NCBI GenBank assembly: GCA_025497365.1 | Contig: GCA_025497365.1_4955.1 | Source of the DNA: a phage | Strand: one strand, 5' to 3' | Length of the DNA stretch: 57,325 nt | Part shown: positions 39,001 through 42,000 of the stretch, piece by piece | How positions within the stretch are numbered: the first letter of the stretch is position 1 | How the letters are laid out: every line of letters starts with the position of its first letter | Position numbers: made by a program

Positions 39001-42000
39001 CTGATTTACCAGGCCGTGGATCGTACACTTGATGATACAGTGCTGTTAACCTATTTCGGTTTCTGTATAGGTCAGTATGTTGGTGCTAAAAAAATCGCTG
39101 TAGATAAACAACGAGGTACGCCAAATGACAACCCGTAGTGTGTTAATCACCGTTGTTGCAACCGTTCTTGTGTTAAGCATAGGTGCGTATACGTGTTACC
39201 ACGCTGGGTATAAAGCACGGGTAAATGAAGAACATCAGGAACGTTTAGACGATGCACAACGGGAACAACAACGGTTAAAGGCACAACAGGAACTGGCAGA
39301 TGATGTACTTCGTGGTTTAGCTGACTGGTCGCAGAATACTAAAATCGTGGAAATACGACATGAAAAGACTAATACTGTTTTTCGTAACGAGTGTCTTACT
39401 TCTGAATATCAACGCTTGTACAACGAACGAGTTACCGAAGCAGAAGCCCGTTTATCAGGCCGCATTAGTTCAGAAGTGTCAGACCGAAAACCTTCCACGG
39501 CTGAACGGTCTGACAGGAAGTGATTCAACAGATGTTAATGACCAGTGGTTAGATATTTATTTCAAATGTGCAACTATTCACAACGCATTAGTAGACAGTC
39601 TTCAGTAAATCTTCAACCGATACTTCAATCCACGATGCGGGAACCGGATATTCAGTCCGGTACATGAACAAGGATGTTCCTATCAACCCGTGTGGATCTG
39701 TTTTAATCCCTCGCATGTTCAACAATGGAAAAAACTGTTCGCGTGTTTGTGGCAACCGTGCAAAGCGTCCTGTCGGGCGTTTAGCAGGATCCATAGGGTT
39801 GAATTCAACGATTGTGGACATAGTGAGTTACTCCAGTGAATAGATTGTAATTTCGCAATCAATGTTGTTCAATTTTTCATAAATCAAAGGTCTGACTACT
39901 GACCATGATAAACCACCATTTGAACAACCTAATCGTGGTAATGAAACTGAACGTATTTTAAAGTGTCTGATGACTTTTATAAGATCGTCCAAACCATATT
40001 CAATCCATTGTAATTGTGAAGGATTACACCAATGCTCTTTAGTTGGAAAATTAATAATTATCTGATTGTTTTCAGATGTGACAAACATTTTTCCAACTTT
40101 TACATGGTGTTGTTCACACGCTTTTCGGTACTGTTTAAAATTGTCAGGAAAGGTTCTTTTAAACGCTAAAGCAATACCTTTACCCATTACACCAACGCAA
40201 TTCACAGTGTTTACTAGAGCATGTGAATTGCTTTTAAGAAGGTCCCCCGTGACTTCTATTACTGACATAACAATAACTCCTGTACGCTTGTCGTTTTATT
40301 TTCTGATAGTCGGAAACTTTTACAGATCTCGTTTTACATTCACCGATACGATATGGGTCGAAAACAAACATCACCTGTGAACGGTCATTTCCTCCTGCTG
40401 GTAACCTGGTGTCAGGATCTACAAACGCTATACGACCTTTAAACACCCATAGTTCCGAACAATGTGTCAGTGCTTTGTGAAACCAGTCTGCAGACGTCAT
40501 AGCGTTCACGAGTAATAACGAACCAGTTCCTTGATGAACAGTGGTTATTATTTTATTAACCCATGGAGACGGATCGCTGTATGGTGGATTACACCAGACG
40601 AACCCACCACCATTACTTTGAACAATCGAATTCCAGTCTTTATTCAGACTATCAGTGATAAACAACGAACATTTAGCGTTAGAACCATCGGTACACACAT
40701 CAAGAACAAGTGGGAATTCACGAGAAACGTTATCAATAAAATCCCACGGTGTTTCCCAGTTGTCTTTAGCCATGTTCCGGTACGCTCTCCACGCTGTAAT
40801 AAACGGGGATACCCAGACGTTCAGCTTCTGCAATTTCCGCAATAGTCCCGGACGAACGACGATAATCAGGAAGCACCAGAACAGCGTCACAGCGGCGCAT
40901 AATTTCTAACGTGCCTGACAGGTAGTATTCAGGTTGTATATTGCGTAAACCTCCGTCAAAGTCCCACAATTCGGTGTTCTTGTGAGGGATAACAGGGAAC
41001 CACCCCGGACGTTGTAAAGCAAGTCGTTTACCTGCCTGTTCAGCGCGTGACACGTTACGGGATGTTTTAAGCGCACAGTCAGCACGATAAGGCCCGGCAA
41101 TGTAACAGAGTTTAATCATGGTTGTTTTCCTGCATCTGTATAATGAGCTATGATTTCTCAGATCTCTTGGGTCGGTGTACCCTCCGACAATAATAAAATT
41201 TTTAATCTCTTGTTTATATTTATCGGGAACGAAGTTGAAAAAGTCACGTTTAGTCTTAATTTCCCGACTGAATCTACTCATGACGATTCATTCCTTCTAA
41301 CATATCCCAGATAAGTGCAACACGACGCGGATCCGTGCTGATAGTGTGTAAAGTTTCACATCCGTAATGCCACCCCCAACGAACGGATAATTCTGACAAT
41401 AGATAACCACGGGAATTAGCCAGTTCAGCCAGTTCACCGGGTTTAAACGTCGTTGTATTAGGTTCTGTAAGAACACGAGTACCACAGATAGCGTCACTGA
41501 TGCGCCACGGTTTCATCAGGTCATCAACCTTATACCAGTTACTGATACTGATTTCAGACGTTCCCCAGCGTGCAGCCAGTTTCAGACGTTCCTGACGGGC
41601 CGGGAACATTGGCATCTGTGGTAAACGCAGTTGGATCTGTTCTGCAGGTTCAAACATGTCGTCGTCTGTTAAACGAAATTCACCACGGTCATCAATATAA
41701 AAACCACGGGAACGACCATCACGGGTGAACCCGTCAACACGGTTATAAATTTTACCGGGAGTAAAGACACCAATCGGTGAACCAGTTACAAATTTGTGTG
41801 AAGTATGCATTGTTATTGCCTCAATAAGTTTTAAATAATTCTATACGGTTTACCGAAGTGGTGCAACGAGTTTTTCAGCTTCTTTGATGTAAAAATCATA
41901 ATTGAGCGTTGCCCGGTTAAAACGTTTCATGTCGTTACACTCCGTGGTCAACCAACCTTTACACACTGACATGCGGCGTTCAGGCGCATCAGGGTTCAGT

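What the first reader, a model, noticed from the sequence alone, without database searches (positions are those of the whole stretch)
39125..39608. Overlapped spanin pair and a compact lysis cassette
A lipoprotein-like ORF (signal ending LLNINAC) starts inside the Rz-like i-spanin gene in another frame and extends past its end, the classical overlapped spanin arrangement. With the M15-type endolysin and a two-TM holin candidate this forms a complete lysis cassette. The role of the preceding membrane-anchored coiled-coil protein (38188-38511) is unclear.
Basis: partly seen in the sequence, partly recalled or inferred. Interest (0 to 1): 0.35.

Follow-up and report, generated by a model that had tools for sequence, protein, structure and literature searches.

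The report
Overlapped spanin pair, phage lysis cassette
This is an ordinary, already catalogued pair of overlapping phage genes (an inner-membrane and an outer-membrane "spanin") that finish bursting the host cell, sitting in a standard lysis gene cluster of a 9NA/Sasha-like E. coli phage.

Summary
A 132-aa membrane-anchored, helical protein (39125-39523) and an 82-aa lipoprotein-like ORF (39360-39608) overlap by 164 nt. The second is in the +1 frame and runs 85 nt past the first. Both frames are under purifying selection in nine related phages: variable sites fall from 41% to 14% in the overlap, codon periodicity disappears, and only 3 of 25 substitutions change both proteins (p = 2e-5). The lipobox Cys20 is invariant in eight diverged clades. 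The window is a Nonanavirus/Sashavirus-type E. coli siphophage, 100% identical to vB_EcoS_PJ16 over this stretch. The homologous pair of phage 9NA is already listed in SpaninDB (Kongari 2018) as "overlapped" with the same 164-nt overlap. Sasha, AVIO78A and Bas82 annotate both genes. The endolysin is a well-characterised M15C L-Ala-D-Glu peptidase. The holin is unsettled. The 2-TMD p76 (38908-39138) is better supported, because a relative follows a homologous endolysin in Yersinia phage PY100. The 1-TMD long-helix p107 (38188-38511) belongs to a tiny clade-restricted family of untested function. Nothing here is new; interest is low.

The parts
38188..38511 (+). p107: 107-aa protein with one N-terminal TMD (~res 9-26) and a long C-terminal helix. 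It is the first gene of the cassette and its stop overlaps the endolysin start (ATGA). Holin/antiholin candidate of untested function.
   Evidence: PHROG 24402 'holin' 4e-56. Pfam DUF7365 below cut-off. AF2 predicts a single helix 10-104, pLDDT 71. The family is tiny: 11 clusters in 5.8 G proteins and 6 hits among 1.84 G representatives. It is unrelated to the i-spanin family (hhalign probability 0.4%).
38508..38897 (+). Endolysin: soluble M15C L-alanyl-D-glutamate peptidase, 129 aa, with no signal or SAR segment.
   Evidence: Pfam Peptidase_M15_4 5.7e-13 and PHROG 465 3.8e-74. PDB 23ri 3.5e-55, 8q2g, ChiX 5opz 3.7e-50, T5 endolysin 2mxz 8e-22. No hydrophobic segment.
38908..39138 (+). p76: 76-aa membrane protein with two hydrophobic segments (21-38, 43-60) and a charged C-terminus. 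It is the better-supported holin candidate (class II-like). Its 3' end overlaps the i-spanin start by 14 nt.
   Evidence: KD 1.74 and 1.01. PHROG 1322 'membrane protein' 5.6e-18. The Sasha homologue (96% identical) is annotated with 2 TMDs, N-in C-in. A homologue in Yersinia phage PY100 lies directly after a homologous M15 endolysin. 96% aa versus 85-89% nt identity to Sasha/9NA.
39125..39523 (+). i-spanin: 132 aa, with an N-terminal TMD (res ~5-27, nt 39137-39205) and a helical periplasmic domain. Cys90 (39392-39394) is invariant. The variable C-terminal tail (res ~113-132) is encoded in the overlap.
   Evidence: PHROG 1152 'Rz-like spanin' 3.5e-25. Hydropathy. Alignment A2 has C90, N88 and N100 invariant. 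Single-sequence AF2 predicts helix 2-120 with a low-confidence tail 121-132. SpaninDB lists the 9NA homologue.
39360..39608 (+). o-spanin: 82-aa prolipoprotein in the +1 frame. Signal peptide res 1-19 (39360-39416), lipobox I-N-A-C, acylated Cys20 (39417-39419), Thr at +2, and a mature 63-aa periplasmic part with Cys40 and invariant Cys70.
   Evidence: PHROG 2425 2.5e-26 and PHROG 456 'Rz-like spanin' 3e-4. Pfam LysC 0.003, below cut-off. Alignment A1 has C20 and C70 invariant. The Sasha homologue is annotated 'predicted SPII cleavage at residue 19-20'. SpaninDB notes 'a great lipoP hit' for 9NA.
39360..39523 (+). 164-nt dual-coding overlap: i-spanin res 79-132 in frame 0 and o-spanin res 1-55 in frame +1.
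   Evidence: Variable sites are 22/161 here versus 97/235 upstream and 23/82 downstream, and there is no third-position periodicity. Only 3 of 25 substitutions are non-synonymous in both frames, versus 258/483 possible.
39588..39608 (.). 21-nt tail-to-tail overlap between the o-spanin 3' end and the convergent 77-aa gene 39588-39821 (-). This marks the downstream boundary of the cassette.
   Evidence: The same geometry is annotated in Bas82, AVIO78A and Sasha. No terminator-like site lies between them.

Best explanation
39125-39608 encodes a two-component spanin of the overlapped architecture, the last module of a holin-endolysin-spanin lysis cassette of a 9NA/Sasha-like E. coli siphophage.

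Shown here:
- Both ORFs are real genes under purifying selection.
- The first has an N-terminal membrane anchor and a helical remainder.
- The second has a lipoprotein-type signal whose Cys is invariant across the family.
- The two are homologous to catalogued spanins.

Inferred from the lambda Rz/Rz1 and P2 LysB/LysC paradigm:
- The i-spanin sits in the inner membrane as a type II protein, with its coiled-coil domain in the periplasm.
- The o-spanin is cleaved by signal peptidase II after Ala19 and acylated on Cys20. Because residue +2 is Thr rather than Asp, Lol sorts it to the inner leaflet of the outer membrane.
- The two bind through their periplasmic C-terminal parts. Conserved cysteines (i-C90, o-C40/C70) are available for intermolecular disulfides. 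The complexes span the periplasm, threaded through the murein.
- A holin (more probably p76) permeabilises the inner membrane, and the soluble M15 L-Ala-D-Glu peptidase destroys the peptidoglycan. The complexes are then free to collapse and fuse the inner and outer membranes, which releases the progeny.
For: Geometry and signals.

Family matches: PHROG 1152 'Rz-like spanin' 3.5e-25 for the i-spanin; PHROG 2425 (2.5e-26) and PHROG 456 'Rz-like spanin' (3e-4) for the o-spanin.

Annotation in relatives: the same two genes are annotated i-/o-spanin in Bas82, AVIO78A and Sasha (SPII site 19-20) and in the distant homologue Paul (LipoP SpII score 18.0). The 9NA, phiEco32 and M7 groups are listed there as spanin families.

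Dual-coding signature:
- Variable-site density is 41% in the i-only part, with the third codon position at 56/78.
- It is 14% in the overlap, with no periodicity.
- It is 28% in the o-only part, with the third codon position at 16/28.
- Double-nonsynonymous changes are depleted (3/25 observed versus 53% expected, p = 2e-5).

Conservation over eight clades (Escherichia, Salmonella, Klebsiella, Proteus, Erwinia, Pectobacterium phages and a P2-like phage): the lipobox Cys, o-C70 and i-C90 are invariant, and the overlapped arrangement is kept.

Context: the pair lies immediately downstream of a soluble M15C endolysin and two small membrane proteins, with overlapping or abutting start and stop codons.
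Against: - No experiment exists for this spanin family. All function is by analogy.
- The lipobox is atypical: Asn at -2 and -4 fails the strict [LVI][ASTVI][GAS]C consensus. Sasha and 9NA have the canonical ISAC. LipoP and SignalP could not be run on this exact sequence.
- No curated Pfam or NCBIfam model reaches its cut-off. LysC scores 17.9 bits against 27, and the o-spanin has no NCBIfam hit.
- The all-helix i-spanin model is a single-sequence AF2 prediction, so it is weak evidence.
- The Shine-Dalgarno for the o-spanin is only GGA.
Confidence: 0.92

Rival explanations
1. The 82-aa ORF is a genuine lipoprotein but not a spanin subunit. It could, for example, be a superinfection-exclusion or receptor-blocking lipoprotein of the T5 Llp or Cor type that merely overlaps the preceding gene.
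For: Phages do encode such small lipoproteins. The window has a second one at 52454-52651. No curated spanin model passes its cut-off for the o-spanin. PHROG 2425, its best family, is labelled 'unknown function'.
Against: In every clade examined it is coupled to, and overlaps, a TMD-plus-helix partner, and it lies next to an endolysin in most. It also matches PHROG 456 'Rz-like spanin' and Pfam LysC weakly. The family is listed in SpaninDB. The conserved periplasmic Cys pattern is typical of spanins.
Confidence: 0.04
2. The second ORF is a chance open frame inside and behind a real gene. No protein is made, and the i-spanin-like protein acts alone or is something else.
For: Six of the ten related records inspected in detail do not annotate it: PJ16, 9NA (GenBank), Carvaje, BU9, phi_KPN_H2 and PDP46. 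Its Shine-Dalgarno is weak.
Against: The frame is open and free of indels in all relatives at 79-100% nt identity, with 87-100% aa identity. The 85-nt part beyond the i-spanin shows third-position periodicity in the o-frame (16/28 versus 7/54, p = 5e-5). The overlap shows suppression of synonymous change in the i-frame. tblastn finds 172 phage records with a homologue. Omission of overlapped o-spanins by gene callers is a documented artefact.
Confidence: 0.01
3. This rival concerns the cassette rather than the spanins. On this reading p107 (38188-38511) is the hole-forming holin, and the two-TMD p76 is an antiholin or accessory membrane protein, the reverse of the first reader's assignment.
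For: - p107 is the first gene and is translationally coupled to the endolysin (ATGA overlap), the commonest holin position.
- PHROG 24402 is labelled 'holin', and PJ16, Bas82, BU9 and PDP46 call it holin.
- p107 stays in place when the endolysin module is swapped.
- TMD2 of p76 is only weakly hydrophobic (KD 1.01).
Against: - The 'holin' label is unsupported by experiment and traces back to 'putative holin or antiholin'.
- The p107 family is confined to this phage clade: 6 hits in 1.84 G representatives.
- p107 evolves fast (76% aa versus 76% nt identity), whereas p76 is 96% conserved.
- A p76 relative follows a homologous M15 endolysin in the unrelated phage PY100.
- A single TMD followed by an ~80-residue continuous helix is not a described holin class, to my knowledge.
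Confidence: 0.35

Closest known systems
Salmonella phage 9NA gp59 plus the unannotated o-spanin (SpaninDB, Kongari et al. 2018, PMC6139136); Sasha gp55/gp56; AVIO78A_069/070; Bas82_0059/0060
   Same: These are orthologues: 84-100% (i-spanin) and 89-100% (o-spanin) aa identity. Lengths are identical (132 and 82 aa), as are the +1 frame, the 164-nt overlap, the SPII site 19|20 and the flanking genes.
   Different: The lipobox is INAC here and in the E. coli phages (also in Klebsiella phage BU9), versus ISAC in Sasha and 9NA. This is a single G-to-A change that is silent in the i-spanin frame. There are a few substitutions in the TMD and in the i-spanin tail.
Phage P2 LysB/LysC (archetype of the overlapped spanin architecture)
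   Same: The o-spanin gene starts inside the i-spanin gene in the +1 frame and ends beyond it. The pair lies downstream of holin and endolysin. There are weak profile hits to LysC (Pfam, 0.003).
   Different: No significant sequence homology: scores are far below the curated cut-offs. The P2-like phage ESSI2_ev040, however, carries a true homologue of this family.
Phage lambda Rz/Rz1
   Same: The same two-subunit logic applies: a type II inner-membrane protein with a helical periplasmic domain plus a small outer-membrane lipoprotein, with periplasmic cysteines. The mechanistic model (membrane fusion after murein degradation) is taken from here (and general knowledge).
   Different: Rz1 is wholly embedded in Rz, whereas here the o-spanin extends 85 nt past the i-spanin. 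There is no detectable sequence similarity. The mature o-spanin here has only 3 Pro in 63 residues and a predicted C-terminal helix, rather than being proline-rich.
phiEco32 / Paul (Kuravirus), Erwinia M7 (Kolesnikvirus) and Proteus PM-CJR spanin pairs
   Same: These are distant homologues of both subunits (28-51% identity). They keep the overlapped arrangement and the invariant Cys residues.
   Different: Their i-spanins lack the 12-16-residue C-terminal tail, so the overlaps are shorter (116-137 nt). They are paired with unrelated holins and endolysins.
T5 endolysin (2mxz) / Serratia ChiX (5opz), M15C L-Ala-D-Glu peptidases
   Same: The cassette's endolysin is a close sequence relative (E 8e-22 to 3.7e-50). 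It has the same size and no membrane signal.
   Different: None of note.

Membership tests
Two-component spanin, overlapped class | The i-spanin has a single N-terminal TMD (type II, N-in/C-out). | tested here: met
   There is one hydrophobic segment, res ~5-27 (KD 1.71, maximum 17-aa window 2.45), with Arg4 on the N side. Sasha's orthologue is annotated TMD 7-29, N-in C-out. Topology itself is predicted, not measured.
Two-component spanin, overlapped class | The i-spanin periplasmic domain is largely alpha-helical or coiled-coil. | tested here: met
   Single-sequence AF2 predicts helix 2-120, pLDDT 87 (weak evidence). The SpaninDB tables for the 9NA orthologue appear to give ~54% helix and one coiled-coil segment 29-71, but the column headings were not seen.
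Two-component spanin, overlapped class | The o-spanin has a signal peptidase II signal with a lipobox Cys. | tested here: met
   The n-region is MKR, the h-region is LILFFVTSVLLL, and INAC matches [ILMFTV][^REKD][GAS]C. Cys20 is invariant in 8 clades. Orthologues and homologues are LipoP-positive according to their annotators. The strict [LVI][ASTVI][GAS]C consensus is not met (Asn at -2). o-spanin lipoboxes with Asn at -2 (LNGC) are on record.
Two-component spanin, overlapped class | The o-spanin is sorted to the outer membrane (no Asp at +2). | tested here: met
   The mature N-terminus is C-T-T. The +2 rule is established knowledge of Lol sorting.
Two-component spanin, overlapped class | The o-spanin gene starts within the i-spanin gene in another frame and ends downstream of it. 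| tested here: met
   The offset is +1, the overlap is 164 nt and the extension is 85 nt. This is the same as the 9NA entry 'ovl, 164' in SpaninDB.
Two-component spanin, overlapped class | Both reading frames are under selection (real dual coding). | tested here: met
   variability drops in the overlap, periodicity is lost, and only 3 of 25 substitutions are double non-synonymous (p = 2e-5).
Two-component spanin, overlapped class | The genes are linked to holin and endolysin genes. | tested here: met
   They lie directly downstream of the M15 endolysin and two small membrane proteins.
Two-component spanin, overlapped class | Periplasmic cysteines are available for intermolecular disulfides. 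| tested here: met
   i-C90, o-C40 and o-C70 are present. C90 and C70 are invariant across clades. Disulfide formation itself was not tested.
Two-component spanin, overlapped class | The pair is required for outer-membrane disruption (spherical-cell arrest of mutants in Mg2+; complementation of lambda Rz/Rz1 amber mutants). | not testable with these tools
   This needs genetics. No published test was found for this family.
Pfam PF23793 LysC / NCBIfam TIGR03495 LysB (P2-type spanin models) | The score reaches the curated gathering cut-off. | tested here: not met
   The o-spanin scores 17.9 bits against LysC (cut-off 27). The i-spanin has no LysB hit. p107 scores 18.5 bits against LysB (cut-off 92.75). 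The pair works like P2 LysB/LysC but is not a member of those sequence families.
M15C L-alanyl-D-glutamate peptidase endolysin | The protein matches Peptidase_M15_4 above cut-off and resembles solved L-Ala-D-Glu peptidases. | tested here: met
   49.7 bits against a cut-off of 25. PDB 23ri, 8q2g, 5opz and 2mxz.
Holin (class II, two TMDs) - p76 | The protein is small, has two or more TMDs and a charged C-terminus, and is encoded next to an endolysin. | tested here: inconclusive
   It is 76 aa with segments 21-38 (KD 1.74) and 43-60 (KD 1.01) and a C-terminus KKIAVDKQRGTPNDNP. It lies next to the endolysin here and in PY100. No holin family model matches: PHROG 1322 is 'membrane protein' and DUF2644 is below cut-off. 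Hole formation was not tested.
Holin/antiholin - p107 | The protein matches a holin family of known function, or shows hole-forming activity. | tested here: inconclusive
   It matches PHROG 24402, labelled 'holin', but that family consists of this clade only and has no experimental basis. No Pfam holin model matches. AF2 predicts a single long helix.

The most novel reading that the evidence does not exclude
The spanins themselves are ordinary. The only open door is p107 (38188-38511). This is a single-TMD protein whose remaining ~80 residues form one continuous helix. It is confined to 9NA-like phages: 6 hits among 1.84 billion representative proteins. It is always the first gene of the cassette, evolves fast, and is retained whichever endolysin type is present. 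It could be a lysis-timing regulator or holin of a structural kind not yet described. One possibility is a type II protein with a periplasmic coiled coil that senses or gates the p76 holin, given that the conserved basic residue before its TMD hints at N-in/C-out, the opposite of the topology annotated for the Sasha orthologue (N-out, C-in).
Probability: 0.15. Interest if true: 0.4.

Novelty: already known. Interest (0 to 1): 0.08.

Why it matters
It matters little beyond correct annotation. The nearest published genome (PJ16) and several relatives (9NA GenBank record, Carvaje, BU9, phi_KPN_H2, PDP46) omit the o-spanin gene. That is the well-known gene-caller bias against overlapped genes, so flagging it is good curation. 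The locus is a clean example of dual coding with a division of labour. The most conserved i-spanin motif (FxNxC) is encoded over the permissive o-spanin signal peptide. The conserved mature o-spanin is encoded over the dispensable i-spanin tail. This pattern was already described for other spanin families by Kongari et al. 2018. The unresolved holin/antiholin identity (p76 versus p107) is the only part that could repay an experiment.

Tried and rejected
1. p107 as a second, orphan i-spanin. Two libraries gave weak Rz-like/LysB hits (phrog_739 at 0.006; TIGR03495 at 0.0019, 18.5 bits against a cut-off of 92.75). Profile-profile comparison with the i-spanin family gave probability 0.4%. The PDB profile search returned only generic coiled coils (myosin and the like, E > 0.3). 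The hits are therefore judged compositional.

2. Structure route for p107. AF2 gives one long helix. Foldseek against BFVD found nothing (best E = 7.4). A PDB fold search was not run, because a single helix is uninformative.

3. A dual-start (holin/antiholin) motif for p76. An in-frame upstream Met exists 10 codons before the start in phages with the M15 endolysin. The extension is not conserved in sequence, however, and it is absent where the endolysin differs. It is therefore a by-product of the endolysin's 3' end.

4. Promoters and terminators bounding the cassette. Consensus scans gave no more sites than shuffled sequence. None lies in the 26-nt divergent gap before p107 or at the convergent 3' end.

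5. SAR endolysins as a clue to a pinholin. All three endolysin types found in relatives are soluble, so this gave no discrimination.

6. Literature on lysis genes of 9NA-like phages. No experimental paper was found.
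Full report
**What is there**

The + strand between 38188 and 39608 carries five tightly packed ORFs:
- p107 (38188-38511);
- a 129-aa protein (38508-38897, whose start overlaps the p107 stop as ATGA);
- p76 (38908-39138);
- a 132-aa protein (39125-39523, overlapping the p76 end by 14 nt);
- an 82-aa ORF (39360-39608).

The last ORF starts 235 nt into the 132-aa gene, so it is in the +1 frame. It shares 164 nt with that gene and runs 85 nt past its stop. The coordinates given (39125-39608) are the start of the first gene and the stop of the second.

**Is it more than chance?**

I scanned all six frames of the 57-kb window for ORFs of 50-200 aa with these features: a basic N-terminus, an uncharged hydrophobic stretch, and [ILMFTV][^REKD][GAS]C at residues 14-31. 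The scan finds only two. One is this ORF. The other is 52454-52651, which is itself PHROG 22517 'lipoprotein'. First-order Markov simulations give 0.36 ± 0.62 such ORFs.

The comparative evidence is stronger. I took the 484-nt segment from nine related phages: PJ16, Bas82, AVIO78A, PDP46, Sasha, 9NA, Carvaje, BU9 and phi_KPN_H2, at 79-100% nt identity. Both frames are open, of identical length and without indels. The dual-coding analysis used the window and eight of these, since PJ16 is identical to the window. Variable sites are distributed as follows.

| Region | Variable sites | Codon-position pattern |
|---|---|---|
| i-spanin-only | 97/235 | third position 56/78 |
| overlap | 22/161 | flat (9/4/9 across positions) |
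| o-spanin-only | 23/82 | third position of the o-frame 16/28, against 7/54 at positions 1 and 2 |

The overlap is less variable than the i-only part at p = 2e-9. Of 25 distinct substitutions in the overlap, only 3 change both proteins, whereas 258 of 483 possible changes would (binomial p = 2e-5).

The substitutions divide neatly. In 39360-39420 they are silent for the i-spanin and alter the o-spanin signal peptide. In 39446-39520 they are silent for the mature o-spanin and alter the i-spanin tail. So both genes are real, and each has priority over a different part of the shared DNA.

**What the window is**

Megablast of 38100-39700 gives 99.6% identity to Escherichia phage vB_EcoS_PJ16. It gives 96-97% to Bas82, AVIO78A and two 'Sashavirus' records, and about 85% to Salmonella phages Sasha, Sergei, Solent, SP069 and 9NA. 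This is the Nonanavirus/Sashavirus group of siphophages.

**Identity of the pair**

The 132-aa protein matches PHROG 1152 'Rz-like spanin' (3.5e-25). The 82-aa protein matches PHROG 2425 (2.5e-26, unnamed), PHROG 456 'Rz-like spanin' (3e-4) and, below threshold, Pfam LysC (0.003). NCBIfam has nothing significant.

The same two genes are annotated i-spanin and o-spanin in three relatives: Bas82; AVIO78A; and Sasha, where the Center for Phage Technology noted 'TMD (7-29) N in, C out' and 'predicted SPII cleavage at residue 19-20'. They are not annotated in PJ16, the 9NA GenBank record, Carvaje, BU9, phi_KPN_H2 or PDP46.

The curated SpaninDB of Kongari et al. 2018 (PMC6139136) lists 9NA as 'ovl', with i-spanin 35136-35535, o-spanin 35371-35620 and overlap 164. 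It records a signal of 19 residues, lipobox SISA|C, two periplasmic Cys in the o-spanin and one in the i-spanin. [quoted passage not shown] The paper groups (9NA, ESSI-2, FSL_SP-062, FSL_SP-069), (NJ01, ECBP2, KBNP1711, PhiEco32) and (phiEa104, PhiEa21-4, vB_EamM-M7) as spanin families.

tblastn with the two window proteins recovers exactly these groups, plus Proteus, Pectobacterium, Hafnia, Yersinia and Vibrio phages: 172 records for the o-spanin and 137 for the i-spanin.

In eight diverged representatives the lipobox Cys20 and Cys70 of the o-spanin are invariant. Cys90, Asn88 and Asn100 of the i-spanin are invariant as well. The overlapped arrangement is kept.

**The lipobox**

INAC satisfies the rule used by the CPT spanin-finding pipeline, [ILMFTV][^REKD][GAS]C (Ramsey et al. 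2020, PMC7660901). It does not satisfy the classical consensus [LVI][ASTVI][GAS]C quoted in Kongari 2018, because position -2 is Asn.

Sasha and 9NA have ISAC. The difference is one G-to-A change at 39412 that is silent in the i-spanin frame. Kongari 2018 reports deviant o-spanin lipoboxes, including LNGC, which also has Asn at -2. I could not run LipoP or SignalP, so formal prediction on this exact sequence is still outstanding.

Residue +2 of the mature protein is Thr. By the established Lol-avoidance rule this predicts outer-membrane localisation.

**The rest of the cassette**

The 129-aa protein is a soluble M15C peptidase (Pfam Peptidase_M15_4, 5.7e-13; PHROG 465). Its close relatives include solved L-alanyl-D-glutamate endopeptidases: 23ri at 3.5e-55, 8q2g, Serratia ChiX 5opz at 3.7e-50, and T5 endolysin 2mxz at 8e-22. 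It has no hydrophobic segment, so it needs a hole-forming holin.

There are two candidates.

*p76:*
- It has segments 21-38 (KD 1.74) and 43-60 (KD 1.01) and a charged C-terminus.
- It is 96% identical in protein to its Sasha and 9NA orthologues at 85-89% nt identity.
- Its only relatives outside the clade are in Yersinia PY100-like phages. There the homologue (ORF49) lies immediately after a homologous M15 endolysin.

*p107:*
- It has one TMD (about residues 9-26), preceded by a conserved basic residue and a YWP motif.
- AF2 predicts one continuous helix from 10 to 104 (pLDDT 71).
- Its protein identity to Sasha (76%) equals its nt identity.
- Its family is very small: 11 clusters at 90% identity in 5.8 billion proteins, and 6 hits, 3 of them convincing, among 1.84 billion representatives searched exhaustively.
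- Its 'holin' label (PHROG 24402 and several GenBank records) goes back to 'putative holin or antiholin' and has no experimental basis that I could find.

Among relatives the endolysin module is exchanged: M15 peptidase, a 155-aa lysozyme, or a 186-aa glycosyl hydrolase, all soluble. Meanwhile p107, p76 and the spanins stay in place.

I rate p76 as the more probable holin and p107 as an antiholin or regulator, but only modestly so.

**Mechanism**

This part is inferred, not shown. It rests on the lambda Rz/Rz1 and P2 LysB/LysC paradigm summarised in PMC6139136 and on general knowledge of lipoprotein biogenesis.

1. The i-spanin inserts as a type II inner-membrane protein.
2. The o-spanin is lipidated at Cys20, cleaved by LspA and carried to the outer membrane by Lol.
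3. The periplasmic domains associate, probably stabilised by disulfides through the conserved cysteines. The complexes are held in check by the murein meshwork.
4. The holin triggers, and the L-Ala-D-Glu peptidase degrades the murein.
5. The complexes then fuse the two membranes.

The i-spanin tail 113-132 is a clade-specific extension that is absent in other clades. It is variable and of low model confidence. It is probably dispensable. This agrees with Kongari's observation that i-spanins diverge in the part encoded by the overlap.

**Verdict**

Both the observation and the interpretation are right, and the feature is already known and catalogued for this phage group. It is a new instance only in the trivial sense of another isolate. 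Its sole value is annotation hygiene, since the closest published genome omits the o-spanin, plus the small open question of which membrane protein is the holin. Interest is 0.08.

Noticed in passing
36731-38161 (-): The tailspike has a 9NA/Sasha-type N-terminal head-binding domain (Tail_spike_N, 1.6e-17). It is fused to a C-terminal glycerophosphodiester phosphodiesterase (GDPD) domain (2.4e-25; residues ~258-482 of the ORF as listed from TTG 38188). No record in the 50,697-phage collection covers more than 43% of the protein, so the receptor-binding or depolymerase module appears new for this phage group. It may target a glycerol-phosphate-containing surface polysaccharide. A separate 261-aa gene with no Pfam match follows at 35939-36724 (-).
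   Followed up: partly
39828-40268 (-): A macro-domain (Appr-1-p processing) gene (Pfam 9e-20) is present here and in PJ16 but absent at this position in Bas82, AVIO78A and Sasha. It is 37% identical to phiEco32 gp37. In phiEco32 and Paul, gp37 also lies immediately next to the homologous spanin pair, though on the same strand there. This may be a coincidence or a shared mobile neighbourhood, and the gene may be an anti-defence gene.
   Followed up: partly
39588-39608: The o-spanin gene is overlapped at both ends. Its last 21 nt are shared tail-to-tail with the convergent 77-aa gene 39588-39821 (-) (PHROG 25980, unknown function). Only 64 of its 249 nt are therefore single-coding. No terminator-like structure separates the two converging transcription units.
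   Followed up: partly
38162-38187: The likely tailspike start (ATG at 38161, - strand) and the p107 start (38188, + strand) are only 26 nt apart and diverge from each other. No sigma-70-like promoter was found in or near the gap. The promoters of both units must therefore lie inside the opposite coding sequences, or be of a phage-specific type.
   Followed up: no
52454-52651 (+): This is the second and only other lipoprotein-type ORF in the window: 65 aa, MKNIFDRLITVIVFLVSVTLASC..., lipobox LASC, PHROG 22517 'lipoprotein' (2e-47). It may be a superinfection-exclusion or receptor-masking lipoprotein.
   Followed up: partly
38508-38897 and relatives L005, L012-L014: The endolysin is a swappable module within an otherwise syntenic cassette. 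It is an M15 peptidase in the E. coli and Salmonella members, a 155-aa lysozyme in Carvaje, and a 186-aa glycosyl hydrolase in PDP46, BU9 and phi_KPN_H2. PDP46, an E. coli phage, carries Klebsiella-type p107, endolysin and p76, and its i-spanin has a Klebsiella-type 5' (TMD) part. The remainder of its i-spanin and its o-spanin are of the E. coli type. A recombination junction therefore lies near the 5' end of the i-spanin gene.
   Followed up: partly
40234-40890 (-), 40766-41281 (-): A Dam-type N6-adenine methyltransferase (Pfam Dam, 1.9e-31) and a DUF7768/DUF4406 protein lie downstream on the opposite strand. Relatives annotate the latter as nucleoside 2-deoxyribosyltransferase. The methylase is short here (~181 aa), whereas Sasha and 9NA carry a 393-aa methylase at the same position.
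   Followed up: no
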